Made by a program: the position numbers and the translations under genes
Notes under the pieces: model-generated
The model's database searches: none
What the model saw: only the letters and a program-made list of their open reading frames with translations
What the model was told of the DNA's origin: nothing
Shown here: positions 10,678-64,000 of the stretch, piece after piece
How positions within the stretch are numbered: position 1 is the first letter of the stretch
Layout: the number at the start of each line of letters is the position of its first letter
Assembly: GCA_041661405.1 (NCBI GenBank)
Contig: JBAZUL010000003.1
Span: 20,707-84,706, forward strand
Reading direction: 5' to 3'
Length of the DNA: 64,000 nt
Source: Patescibacteria group bacterium
Lineage (GTDB): Bacteria; Patescibacteriota; Patescibacteriia; Patescibacteriales; JBAZCA01

Positions 10678-11724
10678 TTATAATCCTGCCAAAATTTTAT
10701 CTATAAAATCAGACAGGCTATGATCCTTTGCCACTATTTCCCTTAAATCATTCCCGATTTTCGCGCGCTCTTCAGAACTTAAACCCATAATATATTTTAT
10801 CTTTTCACTCAATTCCATGTAATCTTTCTTCTTATACATCAATCTCCCGCTATAATTCCCAATCACATCCTCTAAGGCTTCATTGCAGGTTAGAATTGGC
10901 AGTCCGGCGGCCATGGCTTCAAGGATTGCCTTATCAAGGCTTCCGGTAAGACCCATATTCACGAATAAATCAGCTTCATTCAGGGCCGGCGCAATTTCCC
11001 GGTTCGGCAGAGAACCCCTGAAATTTATCGCGTCTTCCAATTTTTTTTCCTTTACCATCTCTCTCAATTTTCCCAGATATTCTTTCTGCCCCGGCGTCCC
11101 CGGACCACCAATAATATCCACCTTAACCTTCGCATTCTGCCTAACTAATGCTTCCGCCGCCCGGATCAATGTTTCATAATCCTTGGATGGTGAAATTCTT
11201 CCAATAGTTATAATCTTGAATCTATTATTTTTAATTCTTAATTTATCATTCTTAATTCCGTCAACGTCAATCCCCTGCCCGACCACTTTAATCTTTATAC
11301 TGTCTATCCGGCAACCGCTCTTAGTTGAAGTAAAAATTACATGAGTCAGCTTTTCGGCGATTCTTAAACCAATAGGAACATATCCGTGCGCATACCATAA
11401 AGCAACTTTCTTTCTTAATATTCGCCAATAAACAGCACCGAGAATGATGTATTCATAATTCATGTGCACAAAGACTTTATCATAATCCTGACGATTTTGC
11501 CAGATGTGCTTATAAAAATTAAAAAGATATGCAATCCTTGATTTACGCCTTTCTTTACCTAAGCTTAACACCCTCACATTGTCCGGCAAACAATATTTCC
11601 CGCTTTTCAAGCACACTACCGTAACCCGCTCGCATTTTTTGGCAAAACCGGCAATCCAGCCGTGCATAAAACCGAGTACGTCGTCTTTATTGTCAACAGT
11701 CTGGGTAAGAATTAATAATTTCAT
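10678..11724 (-). CDS. glycosyltransferase family 4
   Basis: 348 aa. The C-terminal GLTGSLDKAILEAMAAGLPILTCNEA is a GT4-type motif. Confidence 0.82.
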   Translation of the reverse strand: MKLLILTQTVDNKDDVLGFMHGWIAGFAKKCERVTVVCLKSGKYCLPDNVRVLSLGKERRKSRIAYLFNFYKHIWQNRQDYDKVFVHMNYEYIILGAVYWRILRKKVALWYAHGYVPIGLRIAEKLTHVIFTSTKSGCRIDSIKIKVVGQGIDVDGIKNDKLRIKNNRFKIITIGRISPSKDYETLIRAAEALVRQNAKVKVDIIGGPGTPGQKEYLGKLREMVKEKKLEDAINFRGSLPNREIAPALNEADLFVNMGLTGSLDKAILEAMAAGLPILTCNEALEDVIGNYSGRLMYKKKDYMELSEKIKYIMGLSSEERAKIGNDLREIVAKDHSLSDFIDKILAGL

Positions 11725-58401: not shown

Positions 58402-61400
58402 CTATCTCTTGGCTCCGCTATAGGCAATCGCTCTCACAATGTCCCAAGCCATAGCGCTCTTTGGCGCGTAGCCGTAGATGAATTTAAAAGATTTGATGGC
58501 TTGTTTTTCCGAATTCAAATTCCTGTTGGCTGGTCTTAGGCCATAGGAGATTACGGCAATGGCGTTATTGTCGTGAGTATTGGTTTTGTCCGGTTCTCTC
58601 AGATAGATTTTCTTAAACGCCGCCTCGGCGTTCTTCTCAGTCACAGTGTTCTTCTGTCCCGGCCATCTGCCATTGGCGATTTTAATGATATCGTTCCAAT
58701 CGGTTTCGGTTGCCGGGTTTCGGCCAAAGGCCGATTTGAATGAGGCGATGACGCCGGAGCGTTCGCCCGAGCCTAGTATTTTTGTTGTCCCGGTTCCGGC
58801 GGTGATGAAACTGGTTAGAGCGTTTTTGGCTTTTGACGCTATAGCTTTGGCTTCGCTCTGGAGGGTTTCCAGGGCCGGAGTTGCGGTTTTCGGGGTTTCA
58901 CTATTGCTGTTTTTGTTATCATCGCTTCCCTCGCTGGCATTGGCCGCGGTTCCGGAGCTGTCGCCAATATCAGCGCCAGAGCTGTCATCACTGCTTCCAT
59001 CTCCTGTTTCATTATCATCATCGCTTCCGCTGTTCGCGCCAACGGACTGGTTTTGCTGGTTAAAAAGATAGCTGGGAACGGTATTGCAGTCCCGGGTGTA
59101 GGTCAGGGTATTGGAGTTAGTCGTGTTGCCGTTATTATCTAATGCCGCGATATACCAGGTATGGGCGCCGCAGGAGAAGTTTTGGGTTGGGTGTCGGGAG
59201 GTGGCGGTATTCGCGATATTGTCGGTATCCAGGATATTGTCTATGTAGAGCCGATATTTTTCTATGCCGGATTCAGTGTCGGATGAGGCGTTCCAGGAGA
59301 GCGTTGGCCGGGCCTCGGAGTTTACCGTATTATCCGCCGGGGAGGAGAGGGTGAATGAGGAGGGAGCGGCAGTATCTTTTTCCAATGAGAACGTATGGGT
59401 GGAATAGCCGCCCGAGTAGGTGAACTGGATAATACCTGAGGAGTCGGAGAGGCAGGTCAGGTTAGTTCCGTTGCCATAGCTCGTGGAACAAGTAGTATCG
59501 CCATAGCCGGTGATGGCCGTCGTAGTGGCAATATTGTCTATTTTAAATGTGTAGTAGGTACTGGCGAGGAGATCGCCTATTGTGTGGATGGTTGATGTGG
59601 CATGGGTCTGGCCAACGGCAGTGGCGCTAGAGGTCGCAATCCAGGATTTATTCTTGGCTCCGGTGGTTGACCATTCGGTGATGGAGATGTCCATGTAGGC
59701 CGAGGTTGAGGCCGTGTAGTACCCGCCTCCGGCGGGTACTACCGAGAAATTGGAAGTGGCGATAGTTTCAGTGGTGGTAGAGGCGGTTAATGCCCTGTAT
59801 TTGCCGTTAGAGTAGATCCTTATGGAGCCGGTTTTAGGGATGGCGTTCGTTCCCACAGTATAGGGCGGCTGGTACTCATACGCTCCGATGTCGGGGAGAC
59901 CGTAGATCGGGAAACCAGCGTAGTCGGTAGCTAGAGAGACGTCGGTTCCGGCGTCGATGGCGGGACTGTTGTAGGCCAGTTGGAAGTCGGCGGCGGCGGA
60001 GTAGTCGCCATTAGCATTTGTGAAAACAGGATTAGTCACAAAACCATTACTTTCACCGGATGCGCTTTGCCACGCAGTAAAATTTGCGCTCGCTACTCCA
60101 TTCCACATCCACCAAGCACCATCAACCGCATAATTATTATAATCAGCCACTGCAGTCATGCCCGCCGAAAATCTCACATGCCTAGTAGATGGCGTAGATC
60201 CAAAAATATTGTTTTTTATGGTAAAATTATGTCCCGTATAATTTCCTACATAAATACCATTTCCAGCTGTATATCCATAAAAAACATTATCATAAAAAAT
60301 ACCCGCGATACCTCCGGCGACAGTATTGTTATAAATAGAAGAGTTGAAACCATTAATGACATTATTATAAACTGTAACAGTTAAAGTCTGTGAAGTACCC
60401 AAATCAATGCCGTATAGATGATTGATTGTTCCCCCTGACATATAATTTCTATACACTAACCATGCTCCGGTTGGATAAGTATTAGCCCCAATATCCATAC
60501 CTCTCCTCGTATTTGTTATTATATTTCCATATATTTCACATCCTGATCCTCCAAAATCCCCCGCATATATTCCATTTGTATCTCCAGAATCATCTAGTGT
60601 GATAGTATTATTGTAAATCTTAACCGCACTGGAATTTACGCCGCTTACAGCTATACCCGAGTTAGTAGTACTGCCTCTTGTATTAGCCACTTTATTGATA
60701 GTATTTTCGTAAACATTGCCGTTATCTATTCCTTCATTAGTACCTGCGTTTGGTTCAAAATCGACGCCGGCATGTCCGCCACTGATTGTGTTACCAAAAA
60801 TATCCATGCCATCAGCATCAACAACAGCGATTCCTTGCCTGTCGATACTGTCCGCTCCTCCTCCAATTACATTATTACTAATAACAATATCTTCTGGTGT
60901 TTTTTCCGTTGCTATTTCCCAACTCACAAATATTCCATCTCCTTGAGTACCAATTTGTTGAGACTCAATCAAGTTTATTATATTGTTATCAATCGTTACA
61001 TTAGTAGCACCTCTAACGCAAGCGCCATAGCCAGTACCTGATTGAATAGTGTTATTATTTATATTTATGTAATCAGAACCAGGAGTAGCATAAATACCTC
61101 CTCCGTTAGTTGACCCGCTTGCCTCACCTTGAAAATATTCTATTACCAAACCATCTATCGTTATATAATCTTTGTCGTTAGTGCTTATCCCCATTCTTTG
61201 AGCGATTTCAAACGTATTTCCTGAAGGATCACTGCCGAGATATAAATTTCCGCCAGAATATTTCCATTCGTCTGCGCCAAGAGAACCGATTGTTCCTTTA
61301 AGCAAAACTGTACTTCCACGCATAACCCAAAAAGGTTCAGTAGCGTATGCCTTGTTGTACTCCCCATTTCCGTCCGGACCTGTCCAACCAGTGCCATTAT

Positions 61401-61842
61401 CCTGCATGCTGCCGTAAATCTTCGGATCATCCCCGCTCCCAAACGCTCCGAACGTAATTACACTACCGTCCGTCCCCGAAGCCGGAACCGTCAACTGCTC
61501 TCTCCAAGTTTGTCCTTTTCTAAAATAAACAAAGTCGCCAGGCTGAAGAGCAGCAAAAGCATTGATGTCGGCAATGGTTTTGAAGACAGAATCTGTACCG
61601 GTGTCGGTGGCGAAAGTAGTGTGGTCATAGGTGGTAAAATCCGGCGTGGCGCTCCCGACATTAGTGTCAGTCACTGAGGAGTCTACATAATATGTCGCCG
61701 CCTCCGCCCTCCCCGCCCCAAAAACAAAAAAACTTCCCAAAAAAATTGCGAAGAAAAAGACAAAATTAAAGAATCTGAAATTTTTAACTTTGAGATTTGA
61801 TTTTTGATTTTCTGTTAATCCCCCCCCCTGAGCCTGCCTCAT
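58402..61842 (-). CDS. giant secreted right-handed beta-helix protein with FN3-like domain and a repeated C-terminal module
   Basis: The ORF track gives 58402..61929. I prefer ATG 61842 (GAGG 7 nt upstream), giving 1146 aa. The signal peptide is KNFRFFNFVFFFAIFLGSFFVFGAGRAEA/ATYYVDSS. The N-terminal cap (FKTIADINAFAALQPGDFVYFRKGQTWREQLTV) and many PbH1-like turns (NNTI, NNII, GNTI, NNVI) indicate a beta-helix. The FN3-like region is PSSFTLSSPADNTV...PTLSWNASSD...YRLYIDN. An acidic S/D/G linker follows. The C-terminal double repeat ends in WDIVRAIAYSGAKR. Confidence 0.85.
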   Translation of the reverse strand: MRQAQGGGLTENQKSNLKVKNFRFFNFVFFFAIFLGSFFVFGAGRAEAATYYVDSSVTDTNVGSATPDFTTYDHTTFATDTGTDSVFKTIADINAFAALQPGDFVYFRKGQTWREQLTVPASGTDGSVITFGAFGSGDDPKIYGSMQDNGTGWTGPDGNGEYNKAYATEPFWVMRGSTVLLKGTIGSLGADEWKYSGGNLYLGSDPSGNTFEIAQRMGISTNDKDYITIDGLVIEYFQGEASGSTNGGGIYATPGSDYININNNTIQSGTGYGACVRGATNVTIDNNIINLIESQQIGTQGDGIFVSWEIATEKTPEDIVISNNVIGGGADSIDRQGIAVVDADGMDIFGNTISGGHAGVDFEPNAGTNEGIDNGNVYENTINKVANTRGSTTNSGIAVSGVNSSAVKIYNNTITLDDSGDTNGIYAGDFGGSGCEIYGNIITNTRRGMDIGANTYPTGAWLVYRNYMSGGTINHLYGIDLGTSQTLTVTVYNNVINGFNSSIYNNTVAGGIAGIFYDNVFYGYTAGNGIYVGNYTGHNFTIKNNIFGSTPSTRHVRFSAGMTAVADYNNYAVDGAWWMWNGVASANFTAWQSASGESNGFVTNPVFTNANGDYSAAADFQLAYNSPAIDAGTDVSLATDYAGFPIYGLPDIGAYEYQPPYTVGTNAIPKTGSIRIYSNGKYRALTASTTTETIATSNFSVVPAGGGYYTASTSAYMDISITEWSTTGAKNKSWIATSSATAVGQTHATSTIHTIGDLLASTYYTFKIDNIATTTAITGYGDTTCSTSYGNGTNLTCLSDSSGIIQFTYSGGYSTHTFSLEKDTAAPSSFTLSSPADNTVNSEARPTLSWNASSDTESGIEKYRLYIDNILDTDNIANTATSRHPTQNFSCGAHTWYIAALDNNGNTTNSNTLTYTRDCNTVPSYLFNQQNQSVGANSGSDDDNETGDGSSDDSSGADIGDSSGTAANASEGSDDNKNSNSETPKTATPALETLQSEAKAIASKAKNALTSFITAGTGTTKILGSGERSGVIASFKSAFGRNPATETDWNDIIKIANGRWPGQKNTVTEKNAEAAFKKIYLREPDKTNTHDNNAIAVISYGLRPANRNLNSEKQAIKSFKFIYGYAPKSAMAWDIVRAIAYSGAKR

Positions 61843-61877
61843 CGACTCGCCTCGCTGAGTCGAAGCGGGCAGGCAAG
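61821..61877 (-). repeat. GC-rich nested hairpin element, copy D, containing the SD and ATG of the giant gene
   Basis: Outer stem GCCTGCC/GGCAGGC (61832..61838 and 61868..61874). Inner stem TCGACTC/GAGTCGA (61842..61848 and 61857..61863). GAGG lies in the inner loop (61850..61853) and the ATG at 61840..61842. GGCAGGCTCA is shared with copy A. Confidence 0.7.
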
Positions 61878-62036
61878 CTATTTCAGTTTTTGTATATTCT
61901 CTTCTGTTTAGAGACATTCGTTGGAACATGTCTTTGGTTTTAGTTTTCCCGTTCCTTTCTTGTCTTATCTTCCAGCCAAAGGCGCGGGATTGGTTTATGT
62001 ATTTTAAAACTTTCTGGCTTGCTTGGTTCTTGAGTA

Positions 62037-62071
62037 TATTATAGCCGATTATTTCTTCTTTTTCGACAACA
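62037..62071 (-). repeat. 35-bp repeat (copy 1) spanning the last 7 codons, the stop and 12 downstream nt of the RhuM-like gene; contains TATAAT
   Basis: TATTATAGCCGATTATTTCTTCTTTTTCGACAACA is 32/35 identical to 63108..63142. The minus strand reads ...GAAGAAATAATCGGCTATAATA. Confidence 0.85.
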
Positions 62072-63050
62072 GCAATTTTTTCACTTCCCTGTCAAAATCG
62101 GAAATGTAATTTTTATCTTGCTTTTTGCGATATTTTTCAAACTCCGCTCCGGCTTTTTCTTCCGCCTCTTTGGCGCTGATTATTCCGGCGTTGGCTAGCA
62201 ACTTTTTCTCGCTTAATTTCAGAAATTCGTCTAGCTTGGATATCCAGTCTCGCATAGTCATCAGCCGCTCATTGGTAGCCTGAAGTTCCGCGAAATCAAG
62301 ATAAAGCGAGACGATTAAGTTCAGCTGTTTAATTTCTTTTTCCGACAAATAATTTTTGGCAATTTTTATGTCATGAGCGGTAATATAATTTCCCTTAAAA
62401 CTTGTCAGCCCCATCAGCGGCTTTTTGCTGTCGGCTCGTTTCACGATTATCTCGGCCGCCGTGTGCCCATGCACGGCATAATGCATCTTATTTTGCACCG
62501 TGGCGAAAAATTGTTTGGTGTTTTCCGTATCTTTTTTATAATCAACGCTAGTCGCGTAGATATCCGTCACTTTTTGATAAAAGTTTCGCTCGCTGGAACG
62601 GATATCGCGAATTCGCTGTAAAAGTTCCTGGAAATAACGCGCCCGTTCGCCGCCTTGTTTCAGCCGTTCGTCATCCAAAGTAAACCCCTTGATAATATAT
62701 TCCTTTAACCTCTGCGTCGCCCAAATCCGGAACTGGGTGCCTCGCAAAGAATTTATCCGATAACCGACGGAAATAATTGCATCAAGGTTATATAGTTTGA
62801 CTGGGCGGTTTACCGCTCTAACTCCCTCTTTTTGAACTACCGAGGATTCCTCGGATGTTCGATTTTCTTCTAATTCTCTTTCTATGTAAATATTCTTCAG
62901 GTGCAAGGCGACATTATCAATACTGCAATCAAAAAGCTCCGCCATCTGTTTTTGCGTCAGCCACACTGTTTCATGATCCAATTTCACTTCAACCCGGGTC
63001 TTGCCGTCGTCGGTAGTATAAATTATAATTTTATTGCTTTCTTTTTTCAT
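62049..63050 (-). CDS. rhuM: RhuM-family protein
   Basis: 333 aa. IIIYTTDDGKTRVEVKLDHETVWLTQKQMAELF...NVALHLKNIY, YNLDAIISVGYRINSLRGTQFRIWATQRLKEYIIKGF and SSERNFYQKVTDIYATSVDY fit my recollection of the RhuM family pattern. Confidence 0.8.
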   Translation of the reverse strand: MKKESNKIIIYTTDDGKTRVEVKLDHETVWLTQKQMAELFDCSIDNVALHLKNIYIERELEENRTSEESSVVQKEGVRAVNRPVKLYNLDAIISVGYRINSLRGTQFRIWATQRLKEYIIKGFTLDDERLKQGGERARYFQELLQRIRDIRSSERNFYQKVTDIYATSVDYKKDTENTKQFFATVQNKMHYAVHGHTAAEIIVKRADSKKPLMGLTSFKGNYITAHDIKIAKNYLSEKEIKQLNLIVSLYLDFAELQATNERLMTMRDWISKLDEFLKLSEKKLLANAGIISAKEAEEKAGAEFEKYRKKQDKNYISDFDREVKKLLLSKKKK

Positions 63051-63107
63051 AAATCAAACACCGCAAAAAAATCAAACGCAAGCTATTATTAGTTGCTTTG
63101 CTATCTT

Positions 63108-63142
63108 TATTATAGCCAATTATTTCTTCTTCTTCAACAACA
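63108..63142 (-). repeat. 35-bp repeat (copy 2) at the 3' end of the DinD/Bro-N-like gene; TTGAAG-N17-TATAAT promoter-like
   Basis: TATTATAGCCAATTATTTCTTCTTCTTCAACAACA. The minus strand reads TTGAAG aagaagaaataattggc TATAAT, about 60 nt upstream of the RhuM-like ATG. Confidence 0.85.
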
Positions 63143-63971
63143 TCTTCCCATCCGGTTTCCTTAAAAAGTTACCGGAAGATATCACCTTCTTTCCGGTCTT
63201 GCTCTCCAAATCAATCCGCGTTCTCCTCGCCACGCCTCCGCCTCTTCTTCCGGCAAGCTTGTTTTCCTCCATACTATCGGCGTTTTCACTTTGGGCGAAT
63301 TGCCGGGTAGAAAATTCCGCCAGAGCCGTGAAAATCAATTCCGCCTCGCTCATATGGTCGCGCAAATTTTGGGATTTTAGTCCTTTCAGATTTTTATGTT
63401 CCTTTACCGTCAGATCCGACCATTCCTTATGAATAATATTGGTTAGAATAGCAAACTCCTGTTTTTCGGAAATTCCGTGTTCACTCCAGTAATCCGTCAA
63501 TTTATTCCGCGTCTCCTGCCCCATCATCCTCTGCTGGATCCATTTTTGGCTTCGGCCGTGTTTTTTCCAGTTTTCCCGCGCCCGATTCAAAGACCTTTCC
63601 GGATCAGACATTTCCTGCAATCTTTCATAACCGACTTTGGCCAGCCACAATTTTATCGGTTCGGCTTTTTTGGATGGCACGGATTGGATAAGACGAAAAA
63701 TAGTTTCGGGATTAGCGACATCGGTTTCTCTCATTTTTCCATCTTCGGCGATCATTTTCAACCGGTTACATTTTGTAACCGCTTCACTTCCTTCCGCTTT
63801 TAAGCGATTTTTCAAAACTTTCCAATAATTTCTGGCTGCTTGAAAGTCGGGCTGATCCAGTAATGCCCGGATTATGTCCACCACAGAAAAATACCAAATC
63901 TCCGCCTTTTCGTCATAATGCCGGCGAATTTGGAAATTTTCAAAAATCGCTATTTTTGTGTTAGCATCCAT
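63120..63971 (-). CDS. Bro-N domain protein, DinD (DNA-damage-inducible protein D)-like
   Basis: 283 aa. The N-terminal sequence FENFQIRRHYDEKAEIWYFSVVDIIRALL is Bro-N style. The central/C-terminal VKEHKNLKGLKSQNLRDHMSEAELIFTALAEFSTRQ parallels the KEHNK...DHMGSTELAANLF region I recall from E. coli DinD. This was not verified by search. Confidence 0.65.
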   Translation of the reverse strand: MDANTKIAIFENFQIRRHYDEKAEIWYFSVVDIIRALLDQPDFQAARNYWKVLKNRLKAEGSEAVTKCNRLKMIAEDGKMRETDVANPETIFRLIQSVPSKKAEPIKLWLAKVGYERLQEMSDPERSLNRARENWKKHGRSQKWIQQRMMGQETRNKLTDYWSEHGISEKQEFAILTNIIHKEWSDLTVKEHKNLKGLKSQNLRDHMSEAELIFTALAEFSTRQFAQSENADSMEENKLAGRRGGGVARRTRIDLESKTGKKVISSGNFLRKPDGKMLLKKKK

Positions 63972-64000
63972 AAAAATACTATTAACTGCCTTCTGTCTGC

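What the first reader, a model, noticed from the sequence alone, without database searches (positions are those of the whole stretch)
62037..63142. Two unrelated accessory genes end in the same 35-bp module, which also encodes a promoter
The sequences at 62037..62071 and 63108..63142 are 32/35 identical. Each covers the last seven codons (LL(S)KKKK), the TAA stop and 12 downstream nt (T(C/T)GGCTATAATA) of the RhuM-like and the DinD/Bro-N-like genes. The two proteins are otherwise not homologous. On the transcribed strand, copy 2 reads TTGAAG-N17-TATAAT. Copy 1 keeps the perfect TATAAT but has a weak -35. Each gene therefore carries at its 3' end a ready-made promoter for whatever lies downstream: the RhuM-like gene in one case and the giant phase-variable surface gene in the other. 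A shared 3' junction on unrelated genes resembles a cassette boundary or recombination site. It is analogous in logic, though not in sequence, to integron attC or shufflon sites.
Basis: seen in the sequence. Interest (0 to 1): 0.58.

Follow-up and report, generated by a model that had tools for sequence, protein, structure and literature searches.

The report
Duplicated junction flanking inserted RhuM gene
The shared 35-bp gene ending is real, but it is most likely the scar of a known kind of insertion (a "long target duplication" that copied a neighbour's last codons and a promoter -10 box) left when a small defence-type RhuM gene was inserted in a Patescibacteria genome; there is no evidence that it is a dedicated recombination site.

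Summary
The repeat is confirmed. 62037-62071 and 63108-63142 are 32/35 identical, occur nowhere else in the window, and have unrelated flanks. They bracket one gene, the RhuM gene plus a 57-nt leader.

A 1.1-kb segment (62023-63121) recurs at 91% nucleotide identity in an unrelated context (L003). There too it is bounded on both sides by the core AATYGGCTATAAT. A third copy of the core lies 1-13 nt beyond the window end, as the -10 region of the Bro-N/DinD-like gene.

In 75 RhuM loci from other species, 7 have significant flanking direct repeats of 29-105 nt, and one repeat reaches 881 nt. None of 192 neighbouring genes has such repeats (p = 1e-4). Each repeat is locus-specific and usually copies the 3' end of the upstream gene or its promoter region.

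This matches "insertion with long target duplication", described for restriction-modification genes. I found no recombinase, hairpin, tRNA or type I R-M locus nearby. The motif is confined to this lineage in what I searched.

A promoter role for the TATAAT boxes is plausible but untested.

Verdict: real feature, ordinary in kind, new member of a known class. The cassette-boundary idea is partly right. The attC/shufflon analogy is unsupported.

The parts
63120..63971 (-). Bro-N / DinD-like gene (283 aa), PADLOC candidate defence family PDC-S13. Its C-terminal tail GKMLLKKKK* fits the family's usual KKLLK-type ending.
63108..63142 (-). Upstream copy of the 35-bp direct repeat: last 7 codons + TAA of the Bro-N gene + 12 nt. 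It contains the -35-like TTGAAG (63137-63132) and the -10 TATAAT (63114-63109) that precede the RhuM gene.
63051..63107 (-). 57-nt RhuM leader. It is conserved with the leader of the 95%-identical RhuM in L003, so it travels with the RhuM gene.
62049..63050 (-). RhuM-family gene (333 aa, PF13310; PADLOC PDC-S05), the single gene enclosed by the repeats.
62037..62071 (-). Downstream copy of the 35-bp direct repeat: last 7 codons + TAA of RhuM + 12 nt. It contains TCGAAA (62066-62061) and TATAAT (62043-62038), the only sigma-70-like candidate in the 119-nt gap before the giant gene.
62023..63121 (-). 1.1-kb segment that is 91% identical at nucleotide level to L003 1865-2954, a different genomic context. 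The homology begins at the core AATYGGCTATAAT and ends about 15 nt after its second copy.
   Evidence: (L001 8068-9166 = window 62023-63121)
63972..64000 (-). Leader of the Bro-N gene. The third copy of the core (AATCGGCTATAAT, with TTGTCC-N17-TATAAT) lies immediately beyond the window end, at the equivalent of 64001-64029.
   Evidence: L001 7160-7188; window 64000 = L001 7189
58402..61929 (-). Giant secreted beta-helix protein gene downstream of the repeat, with a G9 tract (61820-61828) near its 5' end. It is the gene whose promoter region appears to have been duplicated.

Best explanation
The two 35-bp copies are the direct repeats left on either side of a single-gene insertion. A RhuM cassette (short leader + ORF, about 1.04 kb) entered the junction between the DinD-like gene and the promoter of the downstream giant surface-protein gene. 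The insertion was accompanied by duplication of the target: the last seven codons and stop of the DinD-like gene plus the 12 nt that carry the -10 box.

The right-hand join probably formed where RhuM's own KKLL-KKKK tail resembled the neighbour's tail, so RhuM now terminates in the duplicated copy. Because the duplicated piece contains the -10 hexamer, RhuM and the giant gene each keep a TATAAT box at a suitable distance. That is a by-product which selection would favour, not a designed portable promoter.

The process is the recombinase-independent 'insertion with long target duplication' described for restriction-modification genes. Its molecular mechanism is unknown; template switching or homology-assisted illegitimate joining are inferences. 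Once flanked by repeats, the unit can be lost, amplified or exported together with its repeats. That would explain the same bounded unit in L003.

Shown: the repeat, its geometry, the bounded homology with L003, and the recurrence of locus-specific repeats around RhuM genes. Inferred: the direction of the event, the join at tail microhomology, and promoter activity.
For: (1) The repeats bracket exactly one gene plus a 57-nt leader.
(2) The RhuM segment is 91% identical in nucleotides to L003. It is bounded there by the same core on both sides, while the outer flanks are unrelated.
(3) Survey of one-genome-per-species RhuM loci. Seven of about 75 independent loci have flanking direct repeats scoring >=23, against a maximum of 17 in 400 mismatched controls. 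None of 192 neighbouring ORFs reaches that score (Fisher p = 1.1e-4). Wider windows add repeats of 133-881 nt.
(4) The repeats differ in every locus and copy what lies upstream. They cover the last 60-105 nt of N6-methylase genes (L015, L052), the last 10 codons of a Gln/Glu-tRNA synthetase (L039), the stop region of an ABC transporter (L012), and intergenic promoter regions (L035, L010, L005).
(5) The inserts are tight: leader 3-57 nt, and the downstream repeat starts between -22 and +76 of the RhuM stop. The window fits this pattern.
(6) The DinD-like tail aligns position for position with family tails such as NKPDSKKLLKNN. The RhuM tail KKLL+LLKKKK (L001) is two residues longer than its nearest relatives' KKLLKKKK, as expected for a fusion.
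(7) The literature describes the same signature for R-M genes: variable repeats of more than 30 bp, unique in the genome, overlapping the 3' end of the upstream gene, with no mobility genes (PMC2853133). RhuM and DinD are known companions of R-M loci (PMC3710099, PMC9881135).
(8) No recombinase, tRNA or R-M genes are nearby.
Against: No empty-site allele (DinD-like gene directly followed by the giant gene with one copy of the module) was found. The insertion and its direction are therefore inferred, not observed.

L003 carries the same tail and core without a DinD-like gene. This requires that unit to descend from a window-like locus, or else means that the tail and core belong to the RhuM unit.

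The Bro-N leader also resembles the RhuM leader for about 25 nt beyond the core (29/38, E = 0.002). A single RhuM insertion does not explain this. It hints at a second, older duplication or at recombination between junctions.

RhuM-family tail lengths vary (6-8 residues after VKK), so the 'two extra residues' argument is weak.

About 90% of RhuM loci show no repeat.
Confidence: 0.55

Rival explanations
1. Local duplication and slot swapping. A promoter-RhuM-tail unit, already flanked by the 13-nt core, duplicated in tandem by unequal exchange. The first RhuM ORF was then replaced by a DinD-like ORF (or the two tails were homogenised by gene conversion). That left leader-like sequence 5' and RhuM-type tail 3' of the DinD-like gene.
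For: It explains both similarities at once: Bro-N leader to RhuM leader (29/38) and Bro-N tail to RhuM tail. Allelic replacement scars are common in these families. There are RhuM remnants upstream of intact RhuM in L003 and L056, and a remnant 3' end of another DinD-like allele after the intact gene in L137-L140. A polymorphism is shared between copy 1 (window) and copy 2 (L136) at the AAR codon, which is compatible with conversion. L003 has the full promoter (TTGTCC-N17-TATAAT) directly in front of RhuM.
Against: It needs two or three successive events. The DinD-like tail looks native to its own family. No tandem RhuM-RhuM array with this junction was found. The cross-phylum pattern of repeats copying unrelated upstream genes is not produced by this route.
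Confidence: 0.2
2. Dedicated site-specific cassette system. Each cassette carries tail + AATYGGCTATAAT at its 3' end as a recombination site. A trans-acting recombinase integrates cassettes at a promoter containing the same core, integron-like, so every cassette receives and passes on a promoter.
For: Three tandem junctions share the core in the window lineage. The same RhuM unit sits between two copies of the core in a second context (L003). The outer halves of the junctions in the two genomes look weakly alike: TTGTCC at the same 17-nt spacing on the left, and ATAsyCAArAwCCAA on the right. This is as expected if the same kind of promoter was targeted twice.
Against: No integrase or invertase lies within about 7 kb upstream or 20 kb downstream. 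The site has no inverted-repeat or hairpin character. The core is absent from 80 RhuM loci of other species. The metagenome scan for the adjacent, partly overlapping leader motif returned only the same contig. Viral-contig hits are chance matches without shared context. Other RhuM insertions have non-conserved, target-derived repeats. Only two cassette types and two contexts are known.
Confidence: 0.12
3. Coincidence or convergence. Both families need a basic KKLLKKKK C-terminus, and both genes happen to be followed at once by a strong -10 box, so the DNA looks alike without any copying.
For: Both families natively end in KKLLK-type tails. TATAAT boxes are the usual promoter element in this genome: they are 4.2-fold enriched in intergenic DNA, and all 10 intergenic copies lie 28-153 nt upstream of a start.
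Against: The copies use identical codons, an identical stop, and an identical offset for AATAATYGGC upstream of TATAAT. That context is found at no other TATAAT in the window. The match score exceeds all 400 controls. Homology with L003 starts and stops at the core.
Confidence: 0.03

Closest known systems
Insertion with long target duplication of restriction-modification genes (Nobusato et al. 2000, as cited in Furuta, Abe and Kobayashi 2010, NAR 38:2428, PMC2853133)
   Same: A small defence-type gene unit with no transposase or integrase is bracketed by direct repeats longer than 30 bp. The repeats are unique to the locus, vary in length between loci, and overlap the 3' end of the upstream gene (the H. 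influenzae 46-bp repeat overlaps 15 bp of HI0105). The unit can be amplified or lost through the repeats.
   Different: The cargo here is a single RhuM gene (and perhaps a DinD-like gene), not an R-M pair. The proposed link to R-M double-strand cleavage therefore does not obviously apply. The host is a Patescibacteria MAG. No empty-site genome comparison was available, and that comparison is the defining evidence in the published cases. The duplicated piece happens to include a -10 box.
Integron gene cassettes (attC x attI, IntI, Pc promoter)
   Same: Promoter-proximal stacking of single-gene units with a shared sequence at the 3' end of each unit. Upstream elements supply expression.
   Different: There is no IntI. 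The repeat is direct and unstructured, whereas attC is an imperfect palindrome recombined as a folded single strand. The motif is not conserved across cassettes elsewhere. Integron cassettes are normally promoterless, whereas here the shared piece contains a -10 box.
attL/attR repeats of integrative elements that target the 3' end of a gene (tRNA or protein genes)
   Same: Direct repeats that reconstitute the 3' end of the upstream gene after insertion.
   Different: No tyrosine or serine recombinase and no tRNA. The element is only about 1 kb. Repeat sequences differ at every RhuM locus and do not match an element-borne attP.
RhuM and DinD/Fic genes embedded in type I R-M operons (PMC3710099; PMC9881135)
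   Same: The same two protein families are accessory, defence-associated, often adjacent or even fused, and widely exchanged horizontally (65-80% identity across phyla). L015 and L052 show RhuM right after an R-M methylase gene.
   Different: In the window there is no R-M locus. The pair sits between large surface-protein genes in an otherwise housekeeping region.
Shufflons and phase-variable hsdS inversion systems; Xer/pdif modules
   Same: Only the general idea of short repeats bounding exchangeable gene segments.
   Different: Shufflons and hsdS inversion systems use inverted repeats and an adjacent invertase. pdif modules use 28-bp XerC/D sites. None of these features is present here.

Membership tests
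Insertion with long target duplication (Kobayashi-type) | Inserted unit flanked by direct repeats >30 bp that are unique in the genome | tested here: met
   35-bp repeats, 32/35 (33/35 in L001), only two copies in 64 kb
Insertion with long target duplication (Kobayashi-type) | No transposase, integrase or other mobile-element genes in or next to the unit | tested here: met
   The unit holds only RhuM. The neighbours are LTD/PKD protein, Cyt-b5, Metallophos, beta-helix protein, FtsK, GyrA and FtsH. No recombinase family was hit. The rest of the window was not scanned.
Insertion with long target duplication (Kobayashi-type) | A related genome without the insert carries a single copy of the repeated sequence (empty site) | tested here: inconclusive
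   No empty site was found. Near-identical strains all carry the insert (L001, L002, L136). The giant protein has no close orthologue (best 46%), and that locus is unrelated.
Insertion with long target duplication (Kobayashi-type) | Repeat length and sequence vary from locus to locus and derive from the target, not the element | tested here: met
   RhuM loci in other species have repeats of 15-105 nt (up to 881 nt). These copy methylase, tRNA-synthetase and ABC-transporter 3' ends or intergenic DNA. The enrichment over neighbouring genes has p = 1.1e-4.
Integron cassette / attC | attC: imperfect inverted repeats able to fold into a hairpin | tested here: not met
   No inverted repeat at or near the module. 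Folds of both junction regions are not better than shuffles (z = +0.94 and -1.57).
Integron cassette / attC | Adjacent IntI tyrosine recombinase with attI and Pc | tested here: not met
   No integrase domain in genes 7 kb upstream (L001 Pfam list) or in the 12 genes downstream that were scanned
Integron cassette / attC | The same site class terminates many different cassettes | tested here: inconclusive
   Only two gene types carry it. The core is absent from 80 other RhuM loci. The leader-motif scan of metagenomes hit only the same lineage.
Shufflon / invertible hsdS system | Inverted repeats plus an adjacent invertase and alternative gene segments | tested here: not met
   The repeats are direct. 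No invertase or hsd genes were found.
Integrative element at a tRNA or gene 3' end | Element-encoded integrase; att core identical between element and target | tested here: not met
   No integrase. No tRNA in 55-64 kb. The element is about 1 kb with one ORF.
Sigma-70-type promoter | -35/-10 hexamers at 16-18 nt and a mapped transcription start | tested here: inconclusive
   The hexamers are present (10/12 for both copies). TATAAT is enriched 4.2-fold in intergenic DNA, always upstream of genes. Start sites cannot be tested with these tools.
RhuM family (PF13310) / PADLOC PDC-S05 | Full-length match to the family model above the curated cut-off | tested here: met
   PF13310 E = 3e-113, 377.7 bits against a cut-off of 33.7. 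PDC-S05 E = 7e-146.
DinD (E. coli-type, NF008573) | Equivalog score >= 242 bits | tested here: not met
   16.7 bits only. The protein has a Bro-N domain (33.5 bits against a cut-off of 25.6) and matches PADLOC PDC-S13 (E = 5.5e-119). 'DinD-like' is a database label, not membership.

The most novel reading that the evidence does not exclude
RhuM (PDC-S05) genes may be autonomous single-gene mobile cassettes that spread across bacterial phyla by recombinase-free insertion with long, variable target duplication. This would extend a phenomenon so far tied to restriction-modification systems and their DNA cleavage. In Patescibacteria one RhuM clade would preferentially land in the promoter or 5' region of giant, simple-sequence-repeat-bearing (phase-variable) surface-protein genes, duplicating the -10 box so that both the cassette and the surface gene stay expressed. 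The repeated core AATYGGCTATAAT would then be a preferred landing and exchange point for defence cassettes.
Probability: 0.25. Interest if true: 0.6.

Novelty: new member of a known kind. Interest (0 to 1): 0.4.

Why it matters
For this window, the result turns an apparently exotic 'portable promoter / recombination site' into an insertion scar. It also identifies the RhuM gene, and possibly the DinD-like gene, as recent accessory arrivals in an otherwise housekeeping stretch of a CPR genome.

More generally, about one in ten RhuM genes across phyla carries the long-target-duplication signature. This suggests the poorly understood insertion mode is not specific to restriction enzymes. That bears on how single-gene defence modules move without mobility genes.

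The duplication of a -10 box also shows how such insertions can avoid polar effects in compact genomes with tiny intergenic regions.

Tried and rejected
- Generic promoter consensus. The context AATAATYGGC precedes none of the other 34 minus-strand TATAATs. The 13-mer with up to 2 mismatches occurs at chance level in the window.
- Structured RNA or terminator in the junctions. Folds are not significant, the scan calls no terminator there, and there is no Rfam hit.
- tRNA-linked integration. No tRNA.
- Viral-contig scans with a 17-mer and a 21-nt pattern. There were 31 and 16 hits, all without shared context, so chance or an unrelated phage family.
- Metagenome scan for the leader motif. Only the same JGI contig was returned.
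- Empty-site search. Exact-protein look-ups of close DinD-like and RhuM relatives gave the same layout (L001, L002, L136), unrelated contexts, or no DNA. The giant protein has no close orthologue, and its best relative's locus has no related promoter.
- E. coli population comparison for RhuM insertion polymorphism. No DNA match.
- Foreign base composition. RhuM is 41.7% GC and Bro-N 43.9%, against 43.8 +/- 4.0% for the window, so there is no signal.
- Homology between the two proteins outside the tail. None.
- Regular DinD-RhuM pairing as an operon explanation. Only 1-2 of 80 RhuM loci have a DinD-like neighbour.
Full report
**Observation.** The two 35-nt stretches are present exactly as described. 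62037-62071 is TATTATAGCCGATTATTTCTTCTTTTTCGACAACA and 63108-63142 is TATTATAGCCAATTATTTCTTCTTCTTCAACAACA. They are 32/35 identical, are the only two matches in the window at up to 3 mismatches, and have none in 100 shuffles. The repeat finder lists them as a direct repeat spaced 1071 nt. Alignment of 150-nt contexts shows similarity ending at both edges.

All genes in the window are on the minus strand. On that strand each copy is the last seven codons, TAA and the next 12 nt of an ORF: RhuM (62049-63050...KKLLLSKKKK*) and a Bro-N/DinD-like gene (63120-63971...GKMLLKKKK*). Pfam gives PF13310 (E = 3e-113) and PF02498. PADLOC files them under the candidate defence families PDC-S05 and PDC-S13. 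BLASTP finds nothing in common but the tail. Both copies are returned as sigma-70-like sites with 10/12 matches: TTGAAG-N17-TATAAT and TCGAAA-N17-TATAAT. Two independent assemblies of near-identical strains (L001, L002; 99.66% identity over 4.7 kb) have the same layout. In L001 the copies are 33/35 identical.

**How improbable is it?** Both protein families natively end in basic KKLLK-type tails. Examples among DinD-like relatives are ...NKPDSKKLLKNN and ...SRKLLK. Examples among RhuM relatives are ...REVKKLLKKKK and ...KKLLGKKK. The coding half of the repeat is therefore less surprising than shuffles imply.

The non-coding half is not a generic promoter context. None of the other minus-strand TATAAT boxes is preceded by AATAATYGGC. 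The 13-mer AATYGGCTATAAT occurs only at these two places in the window. In a like-for-like test (200 nt upstream of the start against -45..+200 around the stop), the window scores 26 and L001 scores 29. Across 400 mismatched locus pairs the mean is 8.5 and the maximum 17. DNA copying is the reasonable reading.

**Anatomy beyond the finding.** Three results change the picture.

First, the repeats bracket exactly one gene: a 57-nt leader plus the RhuM ORF.

Second, L001 extends past the window end. It shows a third copy of the core 1-13 nt beyond position 64000: TTGTCC-N17-TATAAT, with AATCGGCTATAAT followed by GCAGACAGAAGGCAGTTAATAGTA, directly upstream of the Bro-N gene. The window lineage therefore reads: promoter, Bro-N, tail+core, leader, RhuM, tail+core, giant gene.

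Third, a RhuM gene 95% identical in protein (P0122; L003 from GCA_964511705.1, and L004) lies in a different context. Upstream are a disrupted second RhuM allele and a PDDEXK_3 gene. Downstream is a different large secreted protein. blastn aligns L003 1865-2954 with window 62023-63121 at 91% over 1100 nt and aligns nothing else. The alignment starts at AATCGGCTATAAT and ends about 15 nt after the second copy, AATCGG-ATATAAT. The 1.1-kb RhuM unit is thus a discrete transferable segment whose ends coincide with the repeated core.

**Is this peculiar to RhuM genes?** I fetched 80 RhuM loci, one per species, from many phyla at 65-81% protein identity. I then tested each for direct repeats between its upstream region and its 3' end.
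- Seven independent loci score >=23: L052, L035, L015, L010, L048, L039 and the window lineage. L005 and L012 are weaker.
- Wider, gapped searches add L029 (881 nt at 99.7%), L084 (178 nt), L056 and L065.
- None of 192 neighbouring ORFs of >=200 aa in the same loci reaches 23 (Fisher p = 1.1e-4).

The repeats are different in every locus and copy whatever lies upstream:
- the last 60-105 nt of N6-adenine methylase genes of R-M operons (L015, L052);
- the last ten codons of a Gln/Glu-tRNA synthetase (L039);
- the stop region of an ABC transporter (L012);
- intergenic promoter regions (L035, L010, L005).

The enclosed insert is always tight. The leader is 3-57 nt, and the downstream copy begins between 22 nt before and 76 nt after the RhuM stop. 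The window's case is an ordinary member of this series. It is unusual only in that the downstream copy overlaps the RhuM stop, so RhuM ends in duplicated codons, and in that the duplicated piece contains a -10 box.

**Comparison with what is known.** The signature is the one described as 'insertion with long target duplication' for restriction-modification genes. The unit is flanked by direct repeats of more than 30 bp. The repeats are unique in the genome, variable in length, and often overlap the 3' end of the upstream gene. No mobility genes are present (Furuta et al. 2010, PMC2853133, citing Nobusato et al. 2000). Those authors note that the mechanism is unknown and speculate that it depends on R-M double-strand cleavage.

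RhuM and DinD-like genes are known passengers of type I R-M operons and are sometimes fused (PMC3710099, PMC9881135). I found no report of RhuM itself showing this insertion signature.

**Best explanation.** A RhuM cassette was inserted at the junction between the DinD-like gene and the promoter of the giant surface-protein gene. The 35-nt target was duplicated, and the right-hand join fell where the two tails already resembled each other.

The evidence on direction is modest. The DinD-like tail aligns position for position with its family. The RhuM tail in L001 (KKLL+LLKKKK) is two residues longer than its closest relatives' KKLLKKKK.

The L003 unit would then descend from a window-like locus and have been exported with its repeats. 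Its tail, KKLLLKKNNRI, is the same DNA with small deletions. I put this explanation at 0.55.

**Rivals.**
- Tandem duplication of a repeat-flanked RhuM unit, followed by replacement of one ORF by a DinD-like ORF, or conversion between tails (0.2). It explains the additional 29/38 similarity between the Bro-N and RhuM leaders. It fits the allelic-replacement scars seen in L003, L056 and L137-L140. It needs several steps.
In its favour are three stacked junctions and the same unit between two cores in a second genome. Against it:
  - there is no recombinase within 7 kb upstream or about 20 kb downstream;
  - there is no hairpin character;
  - the core is absent from 80 other RhuM loci;
  - the metagenome scan hit only the same lineage;
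  - the repeats elsewhere are target-derived.
- Convergence (0.03).

**Promoter claim.** The claim is plausible but untested. TATAAT is 4.2-fold enriched in the window's intergenic DNA. All ten intergenic copies lie 28-153 nt upstream of a gene start in the gene orientation. Each module copy is the only sigma-70-like candidate in its intergenic gap, and no terminator-like site separates the three genes. The internal boxes could therefore be active promoters, or could be silent within one operon driven from the copy upstream of the Bro-N gene.

**Limits.** No empty-site allele was found, so the insertion is inferred from geometry and analogy. Only two contexts of the closely related unit are known. 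The survey used MAG contigs and simple ORF calls.

**Verdict.** It is a new member (RhuM, Patescibacteria) of a known kind of insertion scar. Interest is moderate at 0.4. This rests mainly on the cross-phylum recurrence around a non-R-M gene, and on the association of the closest RhuM clade with phase-variable giant surface-protein genes.

Noticed in passing
window 61820-61828 (G9 on the coding strand) in ORF 58402-61929; L003 ~2985-2998; L005 ~11130-11150; L143 ~1190: In the closest RhuM clade (81-100% aa), the gene sits directly upstream of giant secreted surface-protein genes that carry simple-sequence tracts near their 5' ends: G9, (GA)7, (CT)10 and G8. None of the RhuM loci from other phyla shows such tracts. 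This may reflect insertion-site preference or a functional link.
   Followed up: partly
L142 1-101: Immediately upstream of an 86%-identical RhuM there is a fragment encoding ...LGEFFVFGVGQASAATY*. It resembles the signal-peptide region of the window's giant protein (FLGSFFVFGAGRAEAATYY), as if RhuM had been inserted inside such a gene. The contig ends at the RhuM stop.
   Followed up: no
window 58402-61929: The NCBI protein for this gene (P0241) is 973 aa, so it starts 202 codons downstream of the ORF's ATG, after the G tract and the signal peptide. This may reflect a different tract length or phase in the deposited assembly, or a start-calling choice. The closest other homologue is only 46% identical, so the gene is hypervariable.
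   Followed up: no
L029 951-1831 and 2957-3837: RhuM is flanked by an 881-nt direct repeat at 99.7% identity that duplicates most of a PRiA4_ORF3-like gene. This is the extreme end of the flanking-repeat series. It could be a Campbell-type integration or an assembly issue.
   Followed up: partly
L003 855-1914; L056 1-176; L137 ~2130-2230: Scars of allelic replacement. In L003 a second RhuM allele is interrupted by a PDDEXK_3 gene, with its tail left upstream of the intact RhuM. L056 has a RhuM 3' fragment upstream of the intact gene. In L137-L140 a 3' remnant of a different DinD-like allele follows the intact gene.
   Followed up: partly
L048 3889-4003, 4992-5045, 5287-5339: A frameshifted RhuM and a GIY-YIG nuclease gene, upstream of an apparent R-M methylase-type gene (not domain-checked), are each bracketed by copies of a ~54-nt palindromic element (CCCCGTTAGATA...TATCTAATGGGG). 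This is a different kind of cassette boundary.
   Followed up: no
window 61840-61885: An inverted repeat (GCCTGCC...CGACTC AGCGAGGC GAGTCG...GGCAGGC) lies just upstream of the G9 tract inside the 5' part of the giant ORF. It was not analysed.
   Followed up: no
L138 3198-4713: A diversity-generating-retroelement-like set (bAvd, RVT_1 reverse transcriptase, Lcl_C target-like gene) lies between two Bro-N genes in a relative's contig.
   Followed up: no
whole window: All 51 substantial ORFs are on the minus strand. Intergenic DNA is only 8.4% of the window. TATAAT boxes mark most intergenic gaps of more than 30 nt.
   Followed up: partly
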